From: a virus
Lineage: Duplodnaviria; Heunggongvirae; Uroviricota; Caudoviricetes
DNA: 54,083 bases
Direction: 5' to 3' (one strand)
Virus record (IMG/VR): IMGVR_UViG_2534682338_000012
Coordinates: 1-54,083 of that record
Position numbers and translations under genes: made by a program. The notes below the pieces were generated by a model, which was not told where the DNA came from, ran no database searches, and worked only from the letters and a program-made list of their open reading frames with translations. This document shows, one piece after another, positions 38,927-54,083 of this stretch (positions are counted from its first letter, which is position 1; each line of letters opens with the position of its first letter).

Positions 38927-40363
38927 ATGAATGCTAAAATTTCATGTCCAATTGATGGGTATATCATAACAGATTTCATAGGAGACGGAGGGAACGGAGA
39001 TGTGTATCTTGTAACTTCAAGTTCTGGCGAGGAAGCATTCGCTTTAAAAATACTAAGAAATGTACAAGAATCAACTTATAATAGATTCAAGGTAGAAGTT
39101 AATTTCTTGAAAGATAATAAAGTAGATGGGGTAATGCCTTTGCTTGATTTTTACCTTCCAGATAATGCAAAAAAAGAACAAGCTTGGTATCTTATGCCAT
39201 TGGCTGAAAGCTTTAAAGAAAGTGTAAAGCAAAAAGATCCATTATCAATCATCTCTGAATTCATTCATCTCACTCAAACCATTATAGAACTCCATGACCA
39301 AAACATATCTCACCGGGATATAAAGCCAGATAATCTTCTATATTTGAATGGCAGGATATTTTTAGCGGACTTTGGATTGGTAAAATATCCTGAAAGAATC
39401 GAATTAACACCCGATATGCGAGACGTTGGCGCAAAATTCACAATGGCCCCAGAAATGAGACGGATAGCAAATCGTGCTGATGGGCTCCCGGCAGACATTT
39501 ACTCTCTGGCAAAATCAGTATGGATGTCTCTGACTAAAGACTATCTTGGTTTTGATGGTCAGTACAGCACAAAATCTAATATCGGATTATCAAACTACAT
39601 AAAAGAACTATATCTACCGCCCTTAGATGACCTATTAGTGCGCGCAACAGATAACGATCCGTATCAGCGACCAACTGCTGCGGAGTTTAAGACAGAACTT
39701 GAAAATTGGATAAAAATTAATAATGATTTCATCCAGCGTAATTTAACTGAATGGTTCGAAATCCAAAACCTACTATTCCCATACAGCACACCGAATAGTG
39801 TAGAGTGGACAAATAATGATGACATAATAAACATACTCAATTTAATAGCTGGAAGGGAGTCTCTAAATCACATGTTTTATCCTTCCGGTGGGGGAAGCGA
39901 TTTGATTTATGTCGAACCAGCCTCAGAAAAAGGATTTATCGCGCTTATAGTCTGTGAACGATGCGCTGAAATTTTAAAGCCCAAAAAACTTTCATTTGAA
40001 TCATTTGGTCATGATCCCGAATGGAATTATTTTCGTCTTGAATGTGAAGTAATCGAACCAATGAAAATTTCGGGTCCCGTTACTAGTTCAACGATGGATG
40101 AATACATGGTTGAAATTACGCCTGGAAATTACATACCTCCAGATTGCTGGGAAATAAATGAGTATCAAGGTAAACCTCTACCTGAAACCGCTAGAATTGT
40201 CAGCAGGTATATAAAAGGTAGTTTTGTATTTTTCTGCAAGTCATCAACTTATAACAGAATAAGCCAGACGTATAATGCTTGGCAGAATGTGGGGGAAAAT
40301 GAATTCAGAAAGCTAATCGCAAAATTTGCTCAGTATGCTTCTGCCCGAAGAACCATTAAATAA
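38927..40363 (+). CDS. Hanks-type Ser/Thr protein kinase with C-terminal domain of unknown function
   Basis: Gly loop IGDGGNGDVY, catalytic Lys (AFALK), HRDIKPDNLL catalytic loop, DFG (LADFGL), APE (MAPEMRR). Confidence 0.8.
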   Translation: MNAKISCPIDGYIITDFIGDGGNGDVYLVTSSSGEEAFALKILRNVQESTYNRFKVEVNFLKDNKVDGVMPLLDFYLPDNAKKEQAWYLMPLAESFKESVKQKDPLSIISEFIHLTQTIIELHDQNISHRDIKPDNLLYLNGRIFLADFGLVKYPERIELTPDMRDVGAKFTMAPEMRRIANRADGLPADIYSLAKSVWMSLTKDYLGFDGQYSTKSNIGLSNYIKELYLPPLDDLLVRATDNDPYQRPTAAEFKTELENWIKINNDFIQRNLTEWFEIQNLLFPYSTPNSVEWTNNDDIINILNLIAGRESLNHMFYPSGGGSDLIYVEPASEKGFIALIVCERCAEILKPKKLSFESFGHDPEWNYFRLECEVIEPMKISGPVTSSTMDEYMVEITPGNYIPPDCWEINEYQGKPLPETARIVSRYIKGSFVFFCKSSTYNRISQTYNAWQNVGENEFRKLIAKFAQYASARRTIK

Positions 40364-40719
40364 TATTCCAACTACTGTGGCAGCGTATTTAATACTTAAT
40401 TGGTCGCTACAGTGTACAAGGAAAGTGTGTTATATAGCGTTCATATTCTGATAAGCATATACAAATCAGGTGTTTTTCGGCTATTATCTTTTGGTATTCC
40501 GTTTTGCCTGCAGCACACTGACACATCTGCTTCTCGCTTACAGCCGCCGAGGTAAGAGAGCACGTTACCGCGTCGGTGGACTTACTGACCTATCAAAATA
40601 ACCGCTTAATGCCAGAAGCGGGTATTCAGAGTATCCTGCAACCATATGGTCATTACACAAAGTGGATAGCAAATGTTTCAGTTTTTTGGCTCAGGATTGA
40701 GCTGGAGTGAGGATAAATA

Positions 40720-41337
40720 ATGAAAAGTAGCCTTGAACAAGCTTTCCAAGAAGCAGCACACGCAGCAGATCGTGCAGTCAGCGGTGCGATGCTGAAGTAT
40801 TCTAATGGGTTGGTCACGGATGAAGACGACATAACAGGGGTACTGATCGGCCGGTTGGATGCTGTGTTTTCCGAAGAAATTGGTGGTGTAACATGGTCTT
40901 CATCCATTCTAAGGCACCGTAAGGGGGTAGCAGCAGAAGAAAAGAAGGTCGGTGCTGACATGCTGCTCCATGTCTCAATCTCAACACCAGAGCTCACCTA
41001 TTCAAAGGGGGTTTTGATTCAGTCAAAGAGAGTTGATGAAGGTATTGCAATGACAGCACAAGGTCACAAAGAATTGCTGGGACAGTGCGACAAAATGCTA
41101 AATATTACCCCGGCTTCGTTTGTTTTTACCTATACGAAGTCAGGGATGCGCTGCGCTTCCGCAACGAAGATTGTTGGAACAAGTAGCCGAATACTTAACG
41201 ATTCGTGCAACCTGACCTCTTATCGGTTCTTCCTGGAACTGTTCCGATGCACAATTGGAGATCGCAACATTACATCGGCCAAGTTTGATGATCTTCGGAT
41301 ACCTCAAGGCATTGCCATCAAGGGAACACTGGAGTAA
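40720..41337 (+). CDS. hypothetical protein (205 aa)
   Basis: ATG with GAGTGAGG RBS downstream of kinase; no recognisable domain. Confidence 0.5.
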   Translation: MKSSLEQAFQEAAHAADRAVSGAMLKYSNGLVTDEDDITGVLIGRLDAVFSEEIGGVTWSSSILRHRKGVAAEEKKVGADMLLHVSISTPELTYSKGVLIQSKRVDEGIAMTAQGHKELLGQCDKMLNITPASFVFTYTKSGMRCASATKIVGTSSRILNDSCNLTSYRFFLELFRCTIGDRNITSAKFDDLRIPQGIAIKGTLE

Positions 41338-41809
41338 GTGGTGTCTCTTCCTAGGCTTTGAGAGTGCATAGACACACAGCCTAAAGGCGGTATAACCCCA
41401 TTGGGTTAAATTATGTCTATTTAACCACATCATGATACGAAGATACCTTCCAAAATGTTGCCATGTACTCATCTGTTGTTGCCTGGCTGGTGACGTGTCT
41501 GGGTGTTAGCACCGTGCTCTCTCATTGTCTGAGTCTGGGCCAATCCACGCTCATAGCAGGCATTCACTTCAGTCATGGCGGAAAGGTATGCATGCTGGGT
41601 GGGGAAAGTGTGAAAGAAAAGAAGACTGCTGCGTCGTTTGTCGTCACGTTTATCTTCATTGGCTATGCAAGTCGTAATACAAGGTGGGACAAAACTGAGA
41701 CACATAAGGCCTCGCAATGGCTTGCAAGGCTTTACATGTTTTGATGTGGTGGGACGTGTGAGCGCAGTGTTGATGGGGTAATGCTTTGAATTAGAAGCGG
41801 ATTCTTATA

Positions 41810-41855
41810 ATTCGTAATGCGAAGGTCGTAGGTTCGACTCCTATTATCGGCACCA
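41810..41855. repeat. attR of prophage / attL of P4-like element (partial tRNA-Thr 3' end)
   Basis: 46-bp copy of tRNA 3' end lacking the 5' half. Confidence 0.7.
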
Positions 41856-42019
41856 TCACCTAGTTTTCCCAAGTCAACCCACATCAACAAAATCATTTAA
41901 AAACATATATATTACGTTATTTTCATACGTTTGAGGTCAACCCTTGTCTCTTGAAATCAACACGCGGTTGGGGGCACAATCAGGGGCATGTTCTGTTCGG
42001 TCTAGGAAATGTGCCCCCA

Positions 42020-43210
42020 ATGATGCTGAATGCCCGCAAGGTTGAAGCTGCGAAAGGAAAAGAGAAGAGCTACAAGCTGTTTGATGGAGGTGGCCTATAC
42101 CTTCAGGTCGAACCTAATGGCTCGCGTTACTGGCGTATGAAATACCGTTTTGCTGGTAAAGAGAAACGATTGTCCTTTGGTGTTTATCCAACAGTCACAC
42201 TTGCTGATGCCAGACAAAAACGAGAAGACGCGAAGAAACTACTCGCAGCAGGTGAAGATCCCGGCGAAGTCAAAAAAGCCAAAAAGCAGGCTTTAAATGC
42301 AGCGATTGAGACACTTAACCCATTCAGAGAAGTGGCGTTAGAGTGGCACAAAATGAAATCACCCAAATGGTCTGAGGGCTATGCTTCCGACATCATTGAG
42401 GCATTCGAGAAAGACATTTTCCCGCATATTGGGCACAGACCTATAGCTGATATTCAGCCCCTTGAACTGCTTGAAGTTCTGAGGTTGATAGAAGCTCGAG
42501 GCGCTATGGAGAAAGCGAAGAAAGTCCGTCAGCGATGCGGTGAAGTTTTTCGCTATGCCATCGTAACGGGTAGGGCAATCTACAATCCGGCACCGGATCT
42601 TGCCAGTGCGATGCAAGGACATGAAGCAGTCCACTATCCATTCCTCAAAGCCAACGAACTACCGGAGTTCTTTAATGCCCTTAATTCTTATTCAGGAAGT
42701 CCAATTGTATTGTTGGGGGCGCATTTACTTATCCTGACAGGTCTACGAACTGGAGAACTACGAGCAGGTGAGTGGCGAGAGGTGGATTTTGATAATGCGG
42801 TGTGGGAGATCCCAAAAGAACGTATGAAAATGCGTAGGAGCCATATTGTCCCGTTGTCAAAACAAGCATTATCCCATCTCAAAAGTTTGAAAGAACTAAC
42901 TGGGAACTACCCGCTGATGTTCCCTGGACGCAACGATCCTAGCAAATTTATGAGTGAAGCAAGCATTAATCAGGTGTTTAAACGTATTGGATATGCAGGG
43001 CGTGTTACGGGGCATGGTTTCAGGCATACGATGAGTACAATCCTACATGAGAAAGGATTTAACAGCGCTTGGATTGAAACCCAGCTTGCTCATTCGGACA
43101 AAAACTCTATTCGTGGAATTTATAACCATGCCCAATATCTCGAAGGGAGAAGAGAAATGATGCAATGGTATGCTAATTATTTATCTGAGCTAATTGGTAC
43201 TCATAAATGA
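42020..43210 (+). CDS. P4-type tyrosine integrase
   Basis: N-terminal LNARKVEAAKGKEKSYKLFDGGGLYLQV (DUF4102-like arm-binding domain), C-terminal HGFRHT...Y catalytic region; track start is TTG, ATG chosen. Confidence 0.85.
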   Translation: MMLNARKVEAAKGKEKSYKLFDGGGLYLQVEPNGSRYWRMKYRFAGKEKRLSFGVYPTVTLADARQKREDAKKLLAAGEDPGEVKKAKKQALNAAIETLNPFREVALEWHKMKSPKWSEGYASDIIEAFEKDIFPHIGHRPIADIQPLELLEVLRLIEARGAMEKAKKVRQRCGEVFRYAIVTGRAIYNPAPDLASAMQGHEAVHYPFLKANELPEFFNALNSYSGSPIVLLGAHLLILTGLRTGELRAGEWREVDFDNAVWEIPKERMKMRRSHIVPLSKQALSHLKSLKELTGNYPLMFPGRNDPSKFMSEASINQVFKRIGYAGRVTGHGFRHTMSTILHEKGFNSAWIETQLAHSDKNSIRGIYNHAQYLEGRREMMQWYANYLSELIGTHK

Positions 43211-44031
43211 ATATTTTAAAAATTAATAATACTGATTCTCTGCTCAGAGATTACTACCAGTTGGATGAAGCTTCAGAAAAAATTGGTTGTAGTGAAAAGG
43301 ATATACTCTGGTTTGCCAGAGAACGAGATGTAGAGCTATGCATGGAATTCCATGATGATGAGTATGATGTTTCATGTGGTTTGAAGATTGATGGTCAAAT
43401 GGATGAGTTCTTATCTAATCTGAAATATTTACCACGAGATAGAAATGGCAATATTATGTTGTCAGACTTAAGTTCTATAAGAATCCCTGATGAAGATAAT
43501 TTAATTGATAAAAATGGTTTTATTCGATGTTTCATATCCGGTTTATGGGCTGTTGATTATGAATATAAAGATCTGTTAGTTAAGCATGAGGGGCAACCGG
43601 ATTCTTGGCCTATTCATTTTCTACTGGCGGGTACGCCTAATATAAATTGTAAGGTAATTCTTTATGTAAATTATGATGAAAAAGAAAATTATTATCTTTT
43701 TGAGGTTTTGTGGATTACAAAGGTACAGATTCAAAAATTCATTGATATAGTCTTATGCGAACAAAAGCGGATAAAAAACGCCAATAAATATAAATCACAA
43801 TCTGAGGCGCAAAAACAAAAACATGCTGTTCCTCGAGCTGAAATACTCATGGCTATTATTTCGCTCTATCATCGTGATATGAGGCTAAGAAGAGAGAGTC
43901 CAGCAGCGATAGCTGATTATCTTTTTCAACATGCCAGTGAGTTCTGGCCTAAGACCGGAGAACCGCCTTTGAGCTATGATACTGTTGTTAGTTTGCTACG
44001 TAGTTGCATGAAAAACATTAAGTTTAACTAA
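43207..44031 (+). CDS. hypothetical protein (274 aa), AT-rich
   Basis: Start overlaps integrase stop (ATGA), no recognisable domain. Confidence 0.5.
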   Translation: MNILKINNTDSLLRDYYQLDEASEKIGCSEKDILWFARERDVELCMEFHDDEYDVSCGLKIDGQMDEFLSNLKYLPRDRNGNIMLSDLSSIRIPDEDNLIDKNGFIRCFISGLWAVDYEYKDLLVKHEGQPDSWPIHFLLAGTPNINCKVILYVNYDEKENYYLFEVLWITKVQIQKFIDIVLCEQKRIKNANKYKSQSEAQKQKHAVPRAEILMAIISLYHRDMRLRRESPAAIADYLFQHASEFWPKTGEPPLSYDTVVSLLRSCMKNIKFN

Positions 44032-44156
44032 ATATTAACAATTATTGTGGCTAATGATTTTGGATTTTTTTCATTAGTCACATTTTTCTCATTTATAACC
44101 TATGTTTTAATTTTCCGTGTTGAAGCCAATAGACTTAGATAAACGGAGAATGATGA

Positions 44157-44447
44157 ATGTTATCTAAACATGATAATACTACTTTGCAACGACCTTCAAT
44201 GGATTCTCTGATCGATATGAAGTTTATTACTTCCGATTGTTTATTAAGTGATAAATGGATTTATCGATTGATTTCTCTGAATCGCTTTCCAAAACCTATA
44301 AAAATAGGTCGGATGTCACGATGGCGCGCTGCTGATTATTATAAGTGGCGAGATGGGTTTGAAGAAAACTCAGGTCAACATTTTGAGGGAATGAGAAATA
44401 AGGCAAGAGCAATTAATAAAGGGAATAGATTATCACCTACTCCCTAA
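44157..44447 (+). CDS. AlpA-family phage regulatory protein
   Basis: C-terminal region resembles AlpA HTH (RLISLNRFPKPIKIGRMSRWRAADYYKW); true start may be internal (~44217). Confidence 0.55.
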   Translation: MLSKHDNTTLQRPSMDSLIDMKFITSDCLLSDKWIYRLISLNRFPKPIKIGRMSRWRAADYYKWRDGFEENSGQHFEGMRNKARAINKGNRLSPTP

Positions 44448-44479
44448 GCCTTAATTGATAGTTAGTAATATTTAACTGA

Positions 44480-44653
44480 TTAGCCTTTAGGGTCAATCCC
44501 GCGTGATTGGAGTTCTTTGCGTAAAATTCTTTTAATCCAAGTTGCCAACGCGCTATCTCCATCTTTGCGCATTTCGTTTTCGAGTTGCAACCTAAAATCG
44601 TCGGTAAGACGCATTTGGAATGGTGGAGAACGTTTCTCTTGTGGTGTTGACAT
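44480..44653 (-). CDS. small ribbon-helix-helix-like protein (57 aa), not in ORF track
   Basis: Minus-strand ORF MSTPQEKRSPPFQMRLTDDFRLQLENEMRKDGDSALATWIKRILRKELQ...; beta-strand/helix/helix pattern; two copies of CATGGTAATTACC palindrome at and upstream of start. Confidence 0.4.
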   Translation of the reverse strand: MSTPQEKRSPPFQMRLTDDFRLQLENEMRKDGDSALATWIKRILRKELQSRGIDPKG

Positions 44654-44784
44654 GGTAATTACCCTAGAATATGATGACTACATGGTAATTACCATTGTAA
44701 GTATAGTTCGCTTGTAAAAGCAATGCCCGATTGTGCGGGAACACAAATCGGGCATTTAACCAACCGTTATAAGAGGTAACGAAG

Positions 44785-44961
44785 ATGGCTAAACAGAAGT
44801 GTACCTGGTTATTTGCGGCGATCAACCGCAGTCAACGCAATGCCCGTCCTGTGATGTTAAGGATCACCGCAGATAACGAGCGGTCAGCGCGGCGCAGACT
44901 TGCCCCGGACTATGTACTGAGCTTTGCCGGGCGCATTCCCTGCGGAGGTGAACATGCGTAA
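44785..44961 (+). CDS. small protein (58 aa), possibly Icd-like
   Basis: AAGAGG RBS; MAKQKCTWLFAAINRSQRNARPVMLRITADNERSARRRL...; translationally coupled to next gene; family assignment from memory, low certainty. Confidence 0.35.
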   Translation: MAKQKCTWLFAAINRSQRNARPVMLRITADNERSARRRLAPDYVLSFAGRIPCGGEHA

Positions 44962-45313
44962 TTATCCGCACCCCGGCGAACGCTGGCAGCATGAACGTGG
45001 CTGGACGGTCACGATTATCCGATTAATAGAAGCCTCGCCCTCTGTGGCGCTGGTTAATCCTGAATTCAGCTGTGAAGTGCTGATACGTCATGACAGCGAC
45101 AACCAGCTTTCTTCCTGCCCTCTGGCATGGTTTGAACAGCGGTATACGCGCCTGTTTGATGTACCGCTCTTTAAGCCTGCACCAGCTCCTGCAGGCGGTA
45201 GTGGTTCCGGCCCGCTGACACTGCATCCGTCTGTGCTATTTATCCGCTGGCGGGAGCGTAGCATATGGCGTTCTGCTGAGCCTGACGACGGTCACTATTC
45301 AAAGTTTCTCTGA
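44954..45313 (+). CDS. hypothetical protein
   Basis: Start MRNYPHPGERW after GGAGGTG, overlapping upstream stop. Confidence 0.5.
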   Translation: MRNYPHPGERWQHERGWTVTIIRLIEASPSVALVNPEFSCEVLIRHDSDNQLSSCPLAWFEQRYTRLFDVPLFKPAPAPAGGSGSGPLTLHPSVLFIRWRERSIWRSAEPDDGHYSKFL

Positions 45314-45344
45314 CAAAATACCGCTGAAAACGGAGTAATCCACG

Positions 45345-45629
45345 ATGAATATTTCAAACGGGCACAACGGTGCTCAGGGCCACACTTTGCCTGAAAAACA
45401 CAATACCGGTGCTTTTGCCTATGGGTTGTCAGAGGACAGTTTCGGAAAGCTGACCCGCGCAAGAAATGCCTGCGACATGCTCCAGCTTCTCTTTTCTGAA
45501 TACCCGTCTCAGGCCGGAGCACTGGACGCTGGCTGTGCGCATGGTGTCGCCGCGCTGATGGAGTACCTGCTGGCAGATTTGACGGATATTGCACACAGTT
45601 GCGCACTGATTGAAGGAGGTGCCAGATGA
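45345..45629 (+). CDS. hypothetical protein
   Basis: 94-aa ORF in operon upstream of primase. Confidence 0.45.
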   Translation: MNISNGHNGAQGHTLPEKHNTGAFAYGLSEDSFGKLTRARNACDMLQLLFSEYPSQAGALDAGCAHGVAALMEYLLADLTDIAHSCALIEGGAR

Positions 45630-46009
45630 ACCAGCCGCAGGTTTCCATTTTCCCGGCAGAAATGACCACCGCGCTTTACCGGCGGGCTATTGCTTCAGCA
45701 TGGCGGCAGAAAATGCTGAACGAAACTGGCAGTGATCAGTATGGTCCGCACAGCCTGACGGTGGAGCGTATTGAAATGGCCATTGCGCTGCATATCGAGT
45801 GCGTACTGATTAACGAGTACGGCGAAGTGCAGGGCGCCGCTACCGCGCTGGCACTGCTGACTGACATGCTGGAGCCGTCACTGCTGACCGCGCCGCCGGT
45901 ACTGACCGCGCGCGGCTGTGAAGTGATGGCGGAGATGTACCGCACGCTTCCGGCGGCCTTTGATGACTTCTGCAGTACCGGTGTGACGTTGTATGAGGGG
46001 GAAGTATGA
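45626..46009 (+). CDS. hypothetical protein
   Basis: 127-aa ORF, stop-start overlap with neighbours. Confidence 0.45.
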   Translation: MNQPQVSIFPAEMTTALYRRAIASAWRQKMLNETGSDQYGPHSLTVERIEMAIALHIECVLINEYGEVQGAATALALLTDMLEPSLLTAPPVLTARGCEVMAEMYRTLPAAFDDFCSTGVTLYEGEV

Positions 46010-48678
46010 CAATACGGACGGTTACGCAGATTTCAGCCGCCGCACGGGGGAAATGGCCCGTTATTCTGCAGATGCTGCGTATTGATGTACCTGAAAACGG
46101 CAGGCACGGTCCCTGCCCGAAATGTGGGGGCAAGGATCGTTTTCGCCTTGATGACCTTGACGGGCGCGGGACGTGGATCTGCAGCCAGTGTGGCAATGGT
46201 GACGGTCTGGATCTGGTTAAGCTCGTAACCGGTTACAGCGTCAGAAAGGCTGCGCAGGAGGTGGCGCAGGTGCTTAATGTGCCGGATGTGCAGGAACTGC
46301 CTGTTAAGCCTGCCAGACAAAAAGCCCCTAAACGAGACATGGGTCTTACCGTGGCGGCGCTGATGAAAGAGAGCCACACGGGAGAAAGCGCCTATCTGAC
46401 AGGAAAAGGGTTCGCCGGATACCCGGCCTCTCTGACCGGAAGCGTGCAGCATATCAGCGGTAAGGATTTTCCTGCCGGTTCCCTGCTGTTACCACTCACG
46501 ACCAACACCGGAGCCGTGACCGGTGCACAGCTTATCGCCCCGACGGGTGAAAAAAGCATACTGCCCGGCAGCACGATGAAAGGCGCGTTTGTGTCGCTCA
46601 GCCCGTTACCGTCTGAACCACCGGTACAGGTGGTGATTACCGAAGGTTACGCTACGGCGCTGACGGTAAGCCAGCTCACTGCCGGATGCGTAGTGGCTGC
46701 CATATCTGCGGGCAACCTGCCCAATGTGGCGCAGTCGCTGCGGGCACGCTGGCCTGAGGTAAAAATTATCATCGCCGGTGATAACGATTTTCAGGACGGG
46801 GGTGAGAATCCCGGCAGAGCCTTTGCTGAACGGGCGGCAAAAGCTGTTGGCGGCTGGATGACGCTGCCACCAGGAGAGATTAAGGCTGACTGGAATGACT
46901 TTCATCGGGAGCACGGTATTACCCGTGCCCGTGAAGCCTTTCGCAACGGTCTGGTACTGTGCGGGGAAGGCCGCACGCAACTGCCGCACGGGTTCCGTCT
47001 TACCCAGGAATATCTCTGGTATGAAAAGCAGGTACAGCGCAACGGTGAGACGGAGATCCAGAACGTCAAAATATGCAGCCCGCTGCGCGTGACGGCAATT
47101 ACCTGCGATGCCGATGGCGGTAACTTCGGACGACTGCTGGAATGGGAAGATACGTGGGGTGAGTGTCGCCGCTGGGCGATGCCAATGGAAATGCTGAGCG
47201 GCAGTGGTGAGGAACTGCGCCGGGTTCTGCTGGTTAACGGGCTGTCTTATATCAGCACCACCGGTGAGGCACGCGCACGCCTGATGGAATATATCTCACT
47301 GTGTAAACCGGAACGCCGCGTGACCTGCGTCAGTCGTACTGGCTGGCATGGTCAGGTTTACGTCCTGCAGGATGAGGTCAGCGGTGAAGGTGCAGAGGGT
47401 GTCATTCTCCAGACCACTTCCGTGCAGGGGCGTGATTTCCGCGTGTCGGGCACAACAGAGGAATGGCGGGAGCATGTATCCCGCTACTGTACCGGCAACT
47501 CCCGCGTGGCATTTGCTGTCAGCCTGGCCTTTGCTGCACCACTGTTACGGCTGGTTGGTATGGACGGCGGCGGCTACCACCTCAAAGGGGAATCGACAGA
47601 CGGTAAGACCACCACCATGAAAGCGGCAACCTCCGTCTGCGGCGGGCCTGACTACTGGCAGACATGGCGGGCCACCGGCAACGCGCTGGAGGGATGCGCC
47701 AGCCGCCGTAACGATGCCGCCATGATGCTTGATGAGATCCGGGAAGTTGACGGACGCGAGGCAGGCAATATCGCCTACATGCTGGCAAACGGTCAGGGCA
47801 AGGGCCGTGCCGGTACGGACGGTGAGCTGCGTACCCGTAAGCAGTGGCGCCTGTTGTTCTTTTCAACTGGCGAGTTGTCTCTGACCGAACATGCGGCAAA
47901 GGCCGGTGAGCGTACTTTTGCCGGGATGGAAGTCAGGATGATCCAGATCCCCAGCGATTCCGGGAAGTTTGGCGTTTTTGAGGAGCTGCACGGCTTCGAC
48001 AGCGGCAAGGCTCTGGCAGAGCATCTTGAATGGGCCACGTCCTGCTACTACGGTTCGCCGTTCCGGGAGTGGCTGAAAGCACTGACCGCTGATCTTAACG
48101 GACTAACGGCACAGGCAAAATCGCTGATGAAGGAATATGCTGCCGCCCTGACTCCGAAAGATGCAGGCAATCAGGTGGGCCGGGCTGTGAACCGCTTTGC
48201 ACTGGTGGCGATGGCAGGTGAACTGGCAACCCGTCTGGGTATCACCGGCTGGCCTGAGGGTGAAGCACTGCGGGCAACCCGCGTCTGCCTGAACGCATGG
48301 CTGAAAGATCGCGGGCACACCGCCAATCAGGAAGATATCGCCGCACTGGAGCAGGTTCGCAGTTTCTTTACCGCGAATCAGTACAGCCGCTTTGCAGACT
48401 GGTATGACGAGCGCAACCGCCCCGGCAATATGGTGGGCTGGCGCAGGGTGGAGAAAGGCAGTACCGCGCAGGGCACGGAAGCTGTCACTACGTTCTATGT
48501 CATGCCGTCCGGCTGGAAAGAAATCTGCAGGGGATTTGACCCGCGCAAGGTGGCGCGTCTGTGCGCAGATCGTGGATACCTGCTGCCCTCCACTGATGGC
48601 AAACTCCAGACAACCATTCGCCCGCCAGAGATGAATCCCCGCAGGCTCTATGTCTTCAACAGCGAGGTGCCGGGTTAA
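46006..48678 (+). CDS. P4 alpha-like primase-helicase
   Basis: 890 aa; N-terminal zinc-binding CPKCGG...CSQCGNGDG, TOPRIM-like acidic region, central P-loop (GESTDGKT) helicase region. Confidence 0.85.
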   Translation: MTIRTVTQISAAARGKWPVILQMLRIDVPENGRHGPCPKCGGKDRFRLDDLDGRGTWICSQCGNGDGLDLVKLVTGYSVRKAAQEVAQVLNVPDVQELPVKPARQKAPKRDMGLTVAALMKESHTGESAYLTGKGFAGYPASLTGSVQHISGKDFPAGSLLLPLTTNTGAVTGAQLIAPTGEKSILPGSTMKGAFVSLSPLPSEPPVQVVITEGYATALTVSQLTAGCVVAAISAGNLPNVAQSLRARWPEVKIIIAGDNDFQDGGENPGRAFAERAAKAVGGWMTLPPGEIKADWNDFHREHGITRAREAFRNGLVLCGEGRTQLPHGFRLTQEYLWYEKQVQRNGETEIQNVKICSPLRVTAITCDADGGNFGRLLEWEDTWGECRRWAMPMEMLSGSGEELRRVLLVNGLSYISTTGEARARLMEYISLCKPERRVTCVSRTGWHGQVYVLQDEVSGEGAEGVILQTTSVQGRDFRVSGTTEEWREHVSRYCTGNSRVAFAVSLAFAAPLLRLVGMDGGGYHLKGESTDGKTTTMKAATSVCGGPDYWQTWRATGNALEGCASRRNDAAMMLDEIREVDGREAGNIAYMLANGQGKGRAGTDGELRTRKQWRLLFFSTGELSLTEHAAKAGERTFAGMEVRMIQIPSDSGKFGVFEELHGFDSGKALAEHLEWATSCYYGSPFREWLKALTADLNGLTAQAKSLMKEYAAALTPKDAGNQVGRAVNRFALVAMAGELATRLGITGWPEGEALRATRVCLNAWLKDRGHTANQEDIAALEQVRSFFTANQYSRFADWYDERNRPGNMVGWRRVEKGSTAQGTEAVTTFYVMPSGWKEICRGFDPRKVARLCADRGYLLPSTDGKLQTTIRPPEMNPRRLYVFNSEVPG

Positions 48679-51177: not shown

Positions 51178-52137
51178 ATGCTAACCAGGGCTGAAAATAT
51201 AAGAAAAATCACAAGCTATTTAGCTATTCTCTCAAGAGAGGTTGAGATTAGTGCCTCCCTCAATCTTTTGGATATCAACGTTCAAGCGGAATCTTTTTAT
51301 AGAGATTTCTTAAACTTATGTTATGGATATAATTTAAGAAATACCAATAGTGAAGAGCAAAACTACCAAGCAATAGATCTTGCTGATGAAGATCGGAAGA
51401 TTGCTATACAAGTAACTTCAACTTCTGACTTGGGAAAAATTAAGAATACAGTTGATGGATTTATAAAAAGTAAGCAATATGAAAAATATGATAGACTAAT
51501 TGTACTGAATATAACTGAAAAGAAAAAGCACAGATTGAAAGAGTATGGAATAGCCGGGTGCTATGTAATTAATATCAAAGATGATGTATGGGATTATAAG
51601 GATATAATTAGAAAGATAAACGATTTGAATGATTGTGATATATCAACAATATGCTCATTTTTGGAACGTAATATTAATACTAAAGCTGCTGATAAACCGC
51701 CGAAAGAAGTCACAACTATGTTTGCGATGATTGAATTATTGAGTGATGATGCTCACCCATTGGCAGGAAATGGATTTATTGAAGAGCCTAATCCTGAAAA
51801 TAAAATATATAAAAGATTTTCAGATTATTCAGAGCGGTTGATTGGCTTATATACTGGGTTAGCTCCATTATATAGTGGGATATTTAAGTCAATAAAAGAA
51901 CAGAGCGATATTGGTATCGTAAGGTACCAAAAGATGAGTTTGTATTTAGAGTCATTTAGTGATAAGGTCTTAAGAAGCCATGGTGGAGATCCTATCTTGG
52001 CGCTTAATTATTTAAAAGAATATTTTTCTAAACAACTGAGCCAGAGAAATGTAGATTACGATGAAACAGCTATCAAATTTTTCTTAATTGAGAATTTAAT
52101 TGCATGTAACGTCTTTCCTAATTCGGAGATTCTTTGA
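51178..52137 (+). CDS. hypothetical cargo protein (319 aa), candidate effector/specificity component
   Basis: AT-rich ORF, first gene of tightly coupled three-ORF cassette after P4-like late genes. Confidence 0.55.
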   Translation: MLTRAENIRKITSYLAILSREVEISASLNLLDINVQAESFYRDFLNLCYGYNLRNTNSEEQNYQAIDLADEDRKIAIQVTSTSDLGKIKNTVDGFIKSKQYEKYDRLIVLNITEKKKHRLKEYGIAGCYVINIKDDVWDYKDIIRKINDLNDCDISTICSFLERNINTKAADKPPKEVTTMFAMIELLSDDAHPLAGNGFIEEPNPENKIYKRFSDYSERLIGLYTGLAPLYSGIFKSIKEQSDIGIVRYQKMSLYLESFSDKVLRSHGGDPILALNYLKEYFSKQLSQRNVDYDETAIKFFLIENLIACNVFPNSEIL

Positions 52138-52384
52138 TGTTAAGTTTTTTTTCGAAAGATGAGGATTTGACAAAATCCCCTCCTGTTGTAGGGGCTAAAA
52201 TTCTTAATTTATTTGACGAAACAAAAAAGAAAAAATTAGTATTTTCGATTTAGCAAAAGAATTAAAGAAAAACAACTCTCTAGGAGTGCGTGCAATTTAT
52301 TTTGGAATGGTCTTTCTTTATACTCTTGATCTTATCGATTTCGATGAGCCATATGTGATAAATAAAAATGTTAAGAATAAATAA
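52137..52384 (+). pseudogene. small middle ORF (~80 aa if contiguous) interrupted by frameshift in A-rich tract
   Basis: ATG overlaps upstream stop (TGATG); frame 0 gives 38 aa then stop; adjacent frame continues ...ISIFDLAKELKKNNSLGVRAIYFGMVFLYTLDLIDFDEPYVINKNVKNK to overlap the next gene. Confidence 0.35.
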
Positions 52385-54083
52385 ACTATATAGCATACCA
52401 GAATCTTTTGAGCCAGTAAGCTTTGATAGTGGCATCAATATCATCTTAGGTGAAAAAGATGTTTCATCTAACAAAACTAATGGAGTGGGTAAAACTCTTT
52501 TAATAGAGTTTATTAATTTTTGTTTATTAAAAGAATTTAAGTCGAGTAGAGTTTCTAAAATTCCTCATTCTGATTTTTCGAAAGACATTTTGATATGCCT
52601 TGATTTTAATATTGATAATATTAACATTATATCCCAGCGTTCTATTGGGAAACATAATGAGCCAACACTTGTAATAAATGGAAAAACAATAGAGTTTAGT
52701 GGATTAGATGATGCGTTATCTCATTTAAGCAATCTTATCTTTAAGAATAGTAAGGGTATACTTCATCCATCATTTAGAGCGATGCTGGGGCCTCTGATAC
52801 GCGATGAACGATCTGAATTTAAATCTATTGTTGAGTGCTTCGACACAAAATTACATATACCTGCTGACTATACTCCTCATCTTTATTTGTTAGGTATTGA
52901 TATTGCTCCCTATAAAGAGGCAAAGATTTTACAACGAGAAATAGATGATTTATCAACTACAAAAAATAAAATAAAGAGAGATATTGAATTTCTGACGGGA
53001 AAAAAAATTAGTTCTGCAAAGGCAGAGGTTAATGATCTTAAATCAAAAGTTGAACATATCAGAAACGCTATGGATGCATTTGATAGCGATAGCAGTTATG
53101 AACTTATCAAAGATGAAGTAGAAGAATTAGAAAGTTCTTTAGAAGAGTTGCGGAATAAAAGAACAATACTTAAGTTAGAGCTTTCAAGAATAAATGCTCT
53201 CGTTGGTGAAGTATACATAAATGATGATGAAGTAGTTGAAATTTATAATAAATTTAAAGTTGGATTAGGTGATGCTATCAAAAAAGAACTTAATGATGTT
53301 ATTTCATTTAAGAAAAAAATAGATCACTTCCAAAACACTTTGTTAAATACGCGAAAAGAAACATTACTTTCTGAATTGCGTAAGATATCAGATAAGCTAT
53401 ATACAGTAAATAGACTTTATAAAGAAAAAGCTAGTGTTTTTGAGCAGGCGGGGGGGTTTAAAAGCCTGAAAATTTTAATAATGACTTATCAGAAAAAGTT
53501 AGAGGAGTATTCACAGTTATCTTCATTGCTTAAAAAATTTGAAGATTTCGATTCTAAATGGAAAGTTAAGAAGTCAGAACGCTCTTCTATGATAATTTCG
53601 TTAGATCTTTCTATTATGGATAACGAAAAAACGATTGAATCTTTTGAGGAAACCATTTTATCAATCCATGAATATGTTTTTGGAAATAGAAAGTGTTCTT
53701 TCGAAATTAAGGCGACAGAGAAGAAAGAAACTATCTCAATGGATTTAAGAATTGATGATGACGGTAGTCATAGTAATGAGCGAGAAAAGGTTTTCTTTTA
53801 TGATTTGGCTCTTTTACTTACAGAAGAAACGTTTCGACGTCACCCTGGATTATTAATTCATGATAATATTTTTGATGTGGATCAAGATACATTAATTAAA
53901 AGCTTGAATTATTTGGCAGAGAAATCCAGTTGCTTAAATGATGCACAATATATTTTGACGTTAAATAGCGACAAAATTAGTGAAATTGATAAAAGAGATT
54001 TGAAACTAGATATTAACTTCTATAAGCGAGCTTCGTTAACTAAAATAAATAGATTCCTGGGAAGGCATTATCAAGAAATATAA
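52368..54083 (+). CDS. SMC/ABC-like P-loop ATPase with long coiled coil (571 aa)
   Basis: N-terminal Walker A-like NGVGKT, ~200-aa K/E/L-rich heptad region, C-terminal hydrophobic-D stretch (GLLIHDN) resembling Walker B. Confidence 0.6.
   Translation: MLRINKLYSIPESFEPVSFDSGINIILGEKDVSSNKTNGVGKTLLIEFINFCLLKEFKSSRVSKIPHSDFSKDILICLDFNIDNINIISQRSIGKHNEPTLVINGKTIEFSGLDDALSHLSNLIFKNSKGILHPSFRAMLGPLIRDERSEFKSIVECFDTKLHIPADYTPHLYLLGIDIAPYKEAKILQREIDDLSTTKNKIKRDIEFLTGKKISSAKAEVNDLKSKVEHIRNAMDAFDSDSSYELIKDEVEELESSLEELRNKRTILKLELSRINALVGEVYINDDEVVEIYNKFKVGLGDAIKKELNDVISFKKKIDHFQNTLLNTRKETLLSELRKISDKLYTVNRLYKEKASVFEQAGGFKSLKILIMTYQKKLEEYSQLSSLLKKFEDFDSKWKVKKSERSSMIISLDLSIMDNEKTIESFEETILSIHEYVFGNRKCSFEIKATEKKETISMDLRIDDDGSHSNEREKVFFYDLALLLTEETFRRHPGLLIHDNIFDVDQDTLIKSLNYLAEKSSCLNDAQYILTLNSDKISEIDKRDLKLDINFYKRASLTKINRFLGRHYQEI

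What the first reader, a model, noticed from the sequence alone, without database searches (positions are those of the whole stretch)
43207..44031. AT-rich 274-aa gene translationally coupled to the P4-type integrase
Its start overlaps the integrase stop and its composition differs from neighbours. Genes at the int-alpA junction of P4-like islands are often cargo (exclusion or defence).
Basis: inference. Interest (0 to 1): 0.4.

Follow-up and report, generated by a model that had tools for sequence, protein, structure and literature searches.

The report
Integrase-overlapping accessory gene of a satellite
The 274-codon gene is real and is read together with the integrase of a P4-like phage satellite.

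Summary
ORF 43207-44031 (+) is a genuine gene (dN/dS 0.11). Its ATG overlaps the integrase stop (ATGA), it has no Shine-Dalgarno sequence or promoter of its own, and a terminator-like hairpin follows it. It is AT-rich (34% GC), but so is the next gene, alpA.

The cargo/defence reading is not supported. The gene has no match in PADLOC, Pfam, NCBIfam, PDB or BFVD. It belongs to an unnamed Enterobacterales family of about 250-300 aa. In all 16 distinct loci examined, a member lies directly after a P4-type integrase, and before an AlpA-family gene wherever the contig extended far enough. Four different satellite backbones are represented.

In E. coli the gene stays put while the true defence hotspot after delta/psu turns over (ABC-3C, Drt3, DprA-like). 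It is also the most variable gene of its module: Int 91%, AlpA 74%, this protein 26% between two islands.

It matches the positional class 'iolg' (integrase-overlapping gene) described in Vibrio PICMI satellites, where deleting it abolishes excision.

Best reading (about 0.45): an Int-coupled factor needed, with AlpA, for satellite excision. Rivals are a helper-phage sensor and a defence gene. Function is inferred, not shown.

The parts
41810..41855 (+). Copy of the 3' 46 nt of tRNA-Thr(CGU). It is the attR of the upstream prophage and the attL of the satellite, that is, the left boundary of the P4-like island.
   Evidence: Exact repeat of 1399-1444, expected 0 by chance. In E. coli CD09 the same island lies directly at thrW and is bounded by an 18-nt repeat, 12.4 kb in all.
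41884..42020 (+). int upstream region: two sigma-70-like sites and an 11-nt perfect inverted repeat, TTGGGGGCACA (41968-41978) / TGTGCCCCCAA (42010-42020), abutting the int start.
   Evidence: The inverted repeat is conserved in relatives L003, L017 and L020, and in a related form in L007.
42020..43210 (+). P4-type tyrosine integrase, 396 aa from ATG 42020 (the mechanical ORF call starts at TTG 41951).
   Evidence: Arm-DNA-bind_3 9e-28, Phage_int_M 4e-35, Phage_integrase 1e-25. RefSeq annotation of identical islands.
43207..44031 (+). ORF274, the integrase-overlapping gene and subject of the finding. Predicted layout: acidic N-terminal beta-alpha-alpha-beta (winged-helix-like) unit (about residues 12-48); variable alpha/beta middle (about 56-171); long basic helix (172-202); conserved basic four-helix C-terminal domain (206-270).
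44046..44098 (+). Terminator-like hairpin directly after the ORF274 stop: 12-bp stem 44046-44057 / 44071-44082, then a U-rich tail. It probably ends the int-ORF274 transcript.
   Evidence: Free energy -15 kcal/mol, z -5.4. Three pairs show compensatory changes in 5 relatives. Distant relatives carry equivalent hairpins, and L012 has a U7 tail.
44112..44150 (+). Hairpin that can sequester the alpA Shine-Dalgarno sequence (UUUUCCGU 44112-44119 pairing with ACGGAGAA 44143-44150).
   Evidence: z -2.1 only. The sequence is invariant in close relatives. An analogous pairing, TCTCCAT/ATGGAGA, can be read by eye in the L017 intergenic sequence.
44157..44447 (+). AlpA/Vis-like helix-turn-helix protein (96 aa), candidate excisionase or activator.
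   Evidence: Phage_AlpA 20.6 bits (cutoff 21); phrog_66 1.6e-6.
44480..44653 (-). 57-aa Arc-like ribbon-helix-helix protein. It is the last gene of the exchangeable module int / ORF274 / alpA / small gene.
   Evidence: phrog_228, Arc-like repressor, 3e-3. 86-91% identical in Pantoea and Erwinia relatives. The mosaic breakpoint with sibling islands lies at about 44725-44760.

Best explanation
ORF274 is the integrase-overlapping gene ('iolg' type) of a 12.4-kb P4-like satellite inserted at thrW, in tandem with a prophage.

Proposed mechanism:
1. It is transcribed with int from the int promoter.
2. It is translated by termination-reinitiation at the ATGA overlap, so it is made whenever Int is made, with its synthesis tied to Int's.
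3. The transcript ends at a hairpin before alpA.
4. The protein has no recognisable catalytic motif. It has an acidic winged-helix-like N-terminus, a fast-evolving middle domain, a basic long helix and a strongly conserved basic C-terminal helical domain.
5. I propose that it acts with Int and the helper-induced AlpA/Vis-like protein on attL/attR and is needed for excision of the satellite, and hence for its replication, packaging and transfer. That is the phenotype reported for iolg of the Vibrio satellite PICMI115.

Shown here by computation: the gene is real and under purifying selection; it is coupled to int; it lies directly after a P4-type int in every locus of a wide family, before alpA wherever that side was readable; it is retained while defence cargo turns over; it resembles no known defence or enzyme family.

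Inferred: the excision role, any contact with Int, AlpA or DNA, and which domain does what.
For: Coupling to int:
- ATGA overlap, no Shine-Dalgarno sequence, no internal promoter.
- Conserved terminator-like hairpin after the stop codon.

The family and where it sits:
- 44 clusters (at 50% identity) among 1.8 billion proteins, nearly all full-length at 250-300 aa.
- The int-adjacent gene of the argW island scores 96 bits against the family profile although BLAST sees nothing.
- All 16 distinct loci examined show a member directly after a P4-type int, with alpA next on the same strand wherever the contig reached it. These are the window, L002, L003, L006, L008, L010, L012, L014, L015, L017, L019, L020, L032, L036, L125 and L133 (same element as L088).
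- Junctions with int are overlaps of 4 or 8 nt, gaps of 0-1 nt, or gaps of 30-96 nt.
- Backbones differ: DUF927 primase with psu/delta; D5_N/Pox_D5 primase with Bro-N; P2-capsid gene with Ash, DUF927 and Ogr; and fis-adjacent PICI-like islands.

Backbone-like behaviour in E. coli:
- 66 genomes carry it, always with this int, while the post-delta cargo differs.
- The int / ORF274 / alpA / small-gene block is exchanged as a unit against an otherwise 99%-identical replication module.

Purifying selection is strongest in the C-terminal domain, dN/dS 0.03.

Experimental precedent for the positional class (PMC10803314):
- iolg overlaps int by ATGA and lies between int and alpA.
- Deleting iolg abolishes helper-induced excision, packaging and transduction of PICMI115.
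- The authors propose that Int and IOLG are constitutive, AlpA is phage-induced, and all three form the excision complex.
Against: - Homology between ORF274 and the tested PICMI115 protein (type IOLGd) could not be examined, because no Vibrio sequence was reachable. PICMI iolg/icg genes fall into 13 families, so sharing a position does not prove sharing a function.
- In the PICMI study the iolg deletion was complemented with int and iolg together.
- Int and ORF274 do not co-evolve. L017 has Int 91.5% and AlpA 74% identical to the window, but its family member is only 26% identical, and DNA homology breaks exactly around the gene. That is unexpected for a protein that must fit Int.
- The N-terminal winged-helix-like unit is acidic (pI 4.5) and shows no profile similarity to AlpA or Xis proteins, so DNA binding there is doubtful.
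- Three of 66 E. coli islands carry independent IS1 insertions in the gene. The leuX sibling module uses an unrelated 212-aa gene.
- EcCICFT073 appears, from the paper's gene numbering, to have no gene between int and alpA and is still mobile (PMC6092414).
Confidence: 0.45

Rival explanations
1. Helper-phage sensor or specificity determinant. ORF274 is a regulator whose variable middle domain recognises a helper-phage product. Its conserved basic helix and C-terminal domain then switch on alpA, or license excision. This would make it the Gram-negative counterpart, in logic, of the SaPI Stl sensor, but acting positively.
For: - The gene is a hypervariable cassette between conserved flanks (Int 91% / ORF274 26% / AlpA 74%; Int 83% / 58% / 75%).
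- Variation is concentrated in the middle domain.
- One source labels a Cronobacter member 'helix-turn-helix domain-containing'.
- Every island has a repeat element just downstream of the gene and upstream of alpA. In L010 and L015 these are direct repeats that cannot be simple hairpins.
- How helpers induce alpA is unknown (PMC6092414, PMC10803314), and a loss-of-excision phenotype for an iolg deletion fits a positive sensor as well.
- A LuxR-type regulator next to alpA is likewise essential for excision of PIME elements (bioRxiv 10.64898/2026.01.12.698999).
Against: - In PICMI115, alpA expressed from a plasmid is sufficient for excision, and the authors place IOLG in the excision complex rather than upstream of alpA.
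- The repeat after ORF274 in the window and its close relatives behaves like an RNA hairpin with a U-tail and has no second copy in the island.
- The N-terminal unit is acidic.
- A separate, strong promoter-operator pair with a 57-aa ribbon-helix-helix gene already looks like the main switch.
Confidence: 0.2
2. Defence or exclusion cargo. ORF274 is a single-gene anti-phage or anti-satellite determinant, expressed at a low constitutive level from the int promoter.
For: - It is AT-rich, and rapid allelic replacement is typical of conflict genes.
- The slot holds unrelated genes in sibling modules: a 212-aa protein at leuX, YfjH in CP4-57, and a 290-aa gene in L157.
- Accessory genes lie next to int in SaPIs (PMC6092414).
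- PICMI UP2 shows that orphan satellite genes can be defence genes.
Against: - No PADLOC hit for ORF274 itself; only isolated single-member hits among 31 family members.
- No nuclease, NTPase, TIR, Sir2 or membrane feature.
- No homologue in 50,697 phage records.
- The position is fixed and homologous across very different satellites, while known defence systems swap at another site of the same island.
- Published P4 and P2 hotspot surveys list no int-alpA hotspot.
Confidence: 0.12
3. Regulator or stabiliser of Int itself. ORF274 could be an autoregulator of the int promoter or an Int chaperone or anti-degradation factor that sets Int level or directionality, for example favouring integration or preventing spontaneous excision, without being part of the excision complex.
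For: - Strict cis coupling to int, which would tie its synthesis to Int's.
- A conserved inverted repeat lies at the int start.
- The most conserved part is a basic helical domain.
Against: - The same int upstream repeat is present in the leuX module, which lacks a family member.
- There is no co-evolution with Int.
- The only experimental datum for the class is loss of excision, not hyper-excision.
Confidence: 0.13

Closest known systems
iolg / icg (integrase-overlapping or integrase-contiguous gene) of PICMI satellites of Vibrionaceae (Barcia-Cruz et al. 2024, PMC10803314)
   Same: - Lies directly downstream of int, on the same strand, before alpA.
- ATGA is the commonest overlap.
- Unknown function and no domain hits.
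- Many mutually unrecognisable families.
- Int and iolg form a unit separate from the helper-induced alpA regulon.
   Different: - The host clade is Enterobacterales and the element is a P4-like satellite with psu/sid, delta and a DUF927 primase, not a 5-8 kb minimalist island at fis.
- Sequence relationship to any of the 13 PICMI families was not tested.
- No experiment exists for this family.
- Here two groups that BLAST does not relate (the thrW and argW types) were shown to belong to one superfamily.
Recombination directionality factors: P4 Vis, AlpA of CP4-57, TorI, lambda Xis
   Same: A small-genome mobile element encodes, next to int, a non-catalytic protein needed for excision. The predicted N-terminal beta-alpha-alpha-beta unit has the winged-helix topology of Xis/MerR-type domains.
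   Different: - ORF274 is 3-4 times larger and has four parts.
- Its N-terminal unit is acidic.
- hhalign finds no similarity to the AlpA set.
- A separate AlpA/Vis-like gene is already present 125 nt downstream.
SaPI Stl master repressors (Gram-positive PICIs)
   Same: Encoded next to int, fast-evolving, with a conserved module plus a variable module, and so a candidate for helper specificity.
   Different: - No sequence or fold match.
- Stl is a repressor divergently placed against str/xis, and deleting it induces the island. The one phenotype known for the iolg class is the opposite, no excision.
Defence hotspot of P4-like satellites (Rousset et al. 2022, PMC9122126; PMC13586616)
   Same: The same kind of element, and the same island carries a bona fide hotspot occupant.
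   Different: - The hotspot lies after psu/delta towards attR. In the window it starts at 51178 with SMEK and DUF2326, an ABC-three-component system.
- Its content varies between near-identical islands, whereas ORF274 does not.

Membership tests
iolg/icg class of AlpA-type satellites (positional class, PMC10803314) | Start codon overlaps, or is contiguous with, the 3' end of int on the same strand | tested here: met
   ATGA overlap at 43207-43210. Relatives have overlaps of 4 or 8 nt, or gaps of 0-1 nt.
iolg/icg class of AlpA-type satellites (positional class, PMC10803314) | Lies between int and alpA in a helper-dependent satellite that also encodes a primase | tested here: met
   The order is int, ORF274, an AlpA-like gene, then further genes up to a DUF927/Toprim primase, two psu-like genes and delta.
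iolg/icg class of AlpA-type satellites (positional class, PMC10803314) | Required for helper-induced excision (shown only for PICMI115 iolg) | not testable with these tools
   Needs a deletion and complementation experiment.
iolg/icg class of AlpA-type satellites (positional class, PMC10803314) | Sequence homology to one of the 13 PICMI IOLG/ICG families | not tested
   No Vibrio PICMI sequence could be obtained. The fis-adjacent loci recovered with the PICMI att repeat and checked further proved enterobacterial.
Excisionase / RDF (Xis, Vis, AlpA, HTH_17) | Profile match to the AlpA / HTH_17 / excisionase families | tested here: not met
Known anti-phage defence proteins (PADLOC-DB 2.0) | HMM match to a defence-system component | tested here: not met
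   0 hits for ORF274. Across 31 family members there are only isolated single-member hits, best E 5e-4.
Variable cargo of a satellite hotspot | Presence or absence, or non-homologous replacement, among otherwise near-identical elements | tested here: not met
   Within the thrW int module the gene is always present (66 of 66) while the post-delta cargo changes. Replacement is by distant homologues or comes with the whole int module.
P4 cII / gop / beta (genes next to int in P4 itself) | Pfam Phage_P4_cII or equivalent match | tested here: not met
   No hit. A real P4 cII homologue sits elsewhere in a relative, L003 13637-14506.

The most novel reading that the evidence does not exclude
The int-overlapping genes of Gram-negative satellites (P4-like, PICI-like, PICMI) are one ancient, extremely fast-evolving superfamily. 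Its variable middle domain would read the identity of the helper phage and gate AlpA-dependent excision. That would make it the missing specificity or sensing component of AlpA-type satellite induction, kept AT-rich and exchanged as a cassette because it is under diversifying selection from helpers.
Probability: 0.15. Interest if true: 0.75.

Novelty: new member of a known kind. Interest (0 to 1): 0.42.

Why it matters
How AlpA-type satellites (P4-like elements, Gram-negative PICIs, PICMIs) sense a helper and excise is unresolved. The one genetic study of an int-overlapping gene found it essential for excision but left its role open.

This window offers an E. coli representative of that class:
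- It sits in a satellite type found in about 6% of complete E. coli genomes (336 of 5426).
- It has natural alleles as low as 26% identical between nearly identical int and alpA genes.
- It has natural IS1 knock-outs.

Domain-swap and deletion experiments are therefore straightforward in a tractable host with P2-type helpers.

The result also warns against counting every AT-rich orphan next to an integrase as defence cargo.

The profile link between groups that BLAST treats as unrelated suggests that the '13 families' of iolg may be fewer than they look.

Tried and rejected
Searches that found nothing significant:
- Pfam, NCBIfam, PHROGs and PADLOC on ORF274, and on 31 family members scanned one by one. 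The only recurring hit is phrog_7144, of unknown function, weakly in 7 of 31 members.
- PDB by sequence profile.
- Foldseek against PDB (best E 0.33) and against BFVD (best E 0.047).
- The afdb50 library was not available.
- tblastn against 50,697 phage records: no match.

Ideas tested and dropped:
- The N-terminus is an AlpA/Xis paralogue. Rejected by hhalign and by its acidic pI.
- The leuX 212-aa protein and K-12 YfjH are distant members of the family. Rejected: profile scores are about 0 bits.
- The inverted repeat after the stop codon is an operator with further copies at the att sites. No other copy exists in the island, and the repeat behaves as an RNA hairpin.
- ORF274 is the master repressor. 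Made unlikely by the separate 57-aa ribbon-helix-helix gene with a strong promoter and a double palindromic repeat.

Attempts to reach Vibrio PICMI iolg sequences all failed:
- The paper's supplement lists only locus tags.
- Scans of IMG/VR and of metagenomes with the fis-end att repeat: the hits carrying int-overlapping genes that I followed up were E. coli-like.

The Rfam scan of 41700-46100 gave only a sub-threshold symR hit.
Full report
**Setting.** The window is E. coli-like DNA at thrW.
- tRNA-Thr(CGU) lies at 1369-1444. Its last 46 nt recur exactly at 41810-41855.
- Between the two copies lies a prophage. After the second copy a separate island begins.
- RefSeq genomes that carry the same island directly at thrW show it is 12.4 kb, bounded by an 18-nt repeat of the tRNA end.
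- Gene order: P4-type int, the 274-aa gene, an AlpA-like HTH gene, a 57-aa Arc-like gene on the other strand, an icd-like gene, two orphan genes, DUF5375, a Zn-ribbon/Toprim/DUF927 primase, two psu-like genes, an ogr/delta-like gene, and then an ABC-three-component defence system (SMEK, DUF2326) up to attR.
- It is therefore a P4-like satellite. All these genes except the 57-aa gene are on one strand, and the recognised defence hotspot is at its right end.

**Checking the observation.**
It shares ATGA with the int stop, has no Shine-Dalgarno sequence and no promoter of its own.
- It is far longer than chance allows in 34%-GC DNA: P about 1e-10, and 0 of 20000 shuffles stayed open.
- It evolves under purifying selection, dN/dS 0.107.
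- A 12-bp hairpin with a U-rich tail follows the stop codon (free energy -15 kcal/mol, z -5.4). Relatives keep it through compensatory changes. In one distant relative it is a textbook terminator. So int and ORF274 form a two-gene unit that ends before alpA.
- The composition claim needs one correction. The AT-rich block also covers alpA.

**What the protein is.**
- No curated family, defence model, solved structure or viral model matches it.
- The AlphaFold model (pLDDT 77.7) shows four parts: a beta-alpha-alpha-beta unit at the N-terminus, an alpha/beta middle, a 30-residue helix and a four-helix C-terminal bundle.
- The N-terminal and middle parts are acidic (pI about 4.4). The long helix and C-terminal domain are basic (pI 9.9 and 9.0).
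- The C-terminal domain is the most conserved part (dN/dS 0.03; motif HAxxRExVLxAAI ... FWP..G.PPLS).
- No catalytic motif is apparent.

**The family and its context.**
- A word-indexed search found only 18 close clusters, all in Enterobacterales.
- An exhaustive profile search of 1.8 billion representatives found 44 clusters, mostly full-length at 250-300 aa.
- Named members come from Yersinia, Serratia, Cronobacter, Pectobacterium, Brenneria, Salmonella, Klebsiella, Enterobacter and Morganella. All but one are annotated as hypothetical proteins.
- A profile of these members scores the int-adjacent 293-aa gene of a sibling E. coli island at argW at 96 bits, although pairwise BLAST gives E 0.013.
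- In every locus I could read, the member lies immediately after a P4-type integrase and, wherever the contig extended far enough, before an AlpA-family gene on the same strand.
- This holds in four different backbones: DUF927 primase with psu/delta; D5_N/Pox_D5 primase with Bro-N; an island with a P2-type capsid gene, Ash, DUF927 and Ogr; and fis-adjacent PICI-like islands. In the last group the gene overlaps int by 4 nt but carries a different C-terminus.

**Cargo or backbone?**
- In complete E. coli genomes, 336 islands share the replication module at 90% identity or more.
- They carry one of three int modules: thrW with ORF274 (66 genomes), argW with the distant family member (66-68 genomes), and leuX with an unrelated 212-aa gene (205 genomes).
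- The exchange breakpoint lies at about 44725-44760. The block int / ORF274 / alpA / 57-aa gene therefore moves as one unit.
- Within the thrW module ORF274 is always present, while the post-delta cargo is ABC-3C, Drt3a/b or a DprA-like pair. The Pantoea and Erwinia relatives carry yet other cargo.
- That is backbone behaviour. It is also not the location of any published P4 hotspot.

**An unexpected property.** The gene is the most variable of its module.

| Compared with the window | Int identity | Family member identity | AlpA identity |
|---|---|---|---|
| Pantoea agglomerans island (L003) | 83% | 58% | 75% |
| Metagenomic thrW island (L017) | 91.5% | 26% | 74% |

- In the L017 comparison, nucleotide homology stops about 36 nt before the ORF start and resumes inside alpA.
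- Every int-adjacent gene seen, homologous or not, is the most AT-rich gene of its module: 0.31-0.37 against 0.44-0.50. In one GC-rich element the figures are 0.45 against 0.57.
- I have no tested explanation for either property.

**Link to what is known.**
- A full-text search found the description of 'iolg' in Vibrionaceae PICMI satellites (PMC10803314).
- iolg is a gene of unknown function that overlaps int, most often by ATGA, and lies between int and alpA.
- 25 of 35 subfamilies have such a gene (21 overlapping int, 4 contiguous with it), falling into 13 families.
- In PICMI115 its deletion abolishes helper-induced excision, packaging and transduction.
- The authors propose that Int and IOLG are constitutive, AlpA is induced by the phage, and all three form the excision complex.
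- ORF274 meets the positional definition exactly.
- I could not obtain a Vibrio sequence, so homology to the tested protein is open.
- A preprint on PIME elements reports a similar case: a second regulator next to alpA that is essential for excision.

**Conclusion.**
- The most likely reading is an Int-coupled accessory factor of satellite excision (0.45).
- The hypervariability and lack of co-evolution with Int keep a helper-sensing role alive (0.20).
- An Int-level regulator (0.13) and a defence gene (0.12) are less likely.
- All functional statements are inference from position, coupling, conservation pattern and one experimental precedent in a different clade.
- The decisive test is a clean deletion complemented with ORF274 alone, measuring excision with and without ectopic AlpA.

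Noticed in passing
window 38927-41337: A 478-aa Ser/Thr protein kinase (Pkinase 4.6e-21; PADLOC mad6 and PD-T4-6 models at about 1e-24) is followed by a 205-aa orphan. [quoted passage not shown] This looks like a defence moron.
   Followed up: no
window 44647-44693: A near-consensus promoter (TTGACA, 17 nt, TATGAT) faces the icd-to-primase operon. Two 14-nt repeats, ACATGGTAATTACC, overlap it, each containing the palindrome GGTAATTACC. The divergent 57-aa Arc-like gene (44480-44653, minus strand) starts inside the promoter. This is probably the island's main repressor-operator switch.
   Followed up: partly
window 44714-44853: A perfect 11-nt inverted repeat, AATGCCCGATT / AATCGGGCATT (44722-44756), lies in the leader of the icd-like gene. 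A third copy, AATGCCCG, lies at 44839 inside that gene. From memory, the layout recalls the P4 seqA/seqB/seqC RNA-immunity arrangement. Rfam gives only a sub-threshold symR hit on the minus strand (31.6 bits against a gathering score of 61).
   Followed up: partly
window 44112-44150: The alpA Shine-Dalgarno sequence (ACGGAGAA) can pair with UUUUCCGU 25 nt upstream. The pairing is invariant in Pantoea and Erwinia relatives, and a different pair of sequences in L017 (read by eye) can form the same kind of pairing. This suggests translational control of alpA.
   Followed up: partly
L040, L041, L042 (E. coli VG12A2, 50EVAW, NCTC9966): IS1 is inserted at three different positions inside the ORF274 orthologue in 3 of 66 genomes. 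The unrelated leuX 212-aa gene also has one IS1 insertion among 205 genomes.
   Followed up: partly
L007 4346-4984 and L068 343-996: The 212-aa gene that fills the int-alpA slot in the leuX module is unrelated to ORF274. By eye it resembles a 217-aa gene that overlaps int by 4 nt in a low-GC fis-adjacent island, so it may be a second 'iolg' family shared between satellite types. This resemblance was not scored.
   Followed up: partly
window 51178-54083; L020 16295-18823; L043 18859-21079; L007 12553-14473: The post-delta hotspot of otherwise near-identical islands holds different cargo: ABC-three-component (SMEK, DUF2326), Drt3a/b, a DprA-like gene with an orphan, a retron St85 pair, or a SEC-C protein.
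   Followed up: yes
window 43207-44031 and the equivalent genes in L002, L003, L006, L007, L008, L010, L017, L032: Whatever gene follows int is the most AT-rich gene of its module, even in Pantoea and Erwinia and in a 57-60% GC element, and even after divergence to 26% identity. No explanation was tested; H-NS targeting and expression tuning are possibilities.
   Followed up: partly
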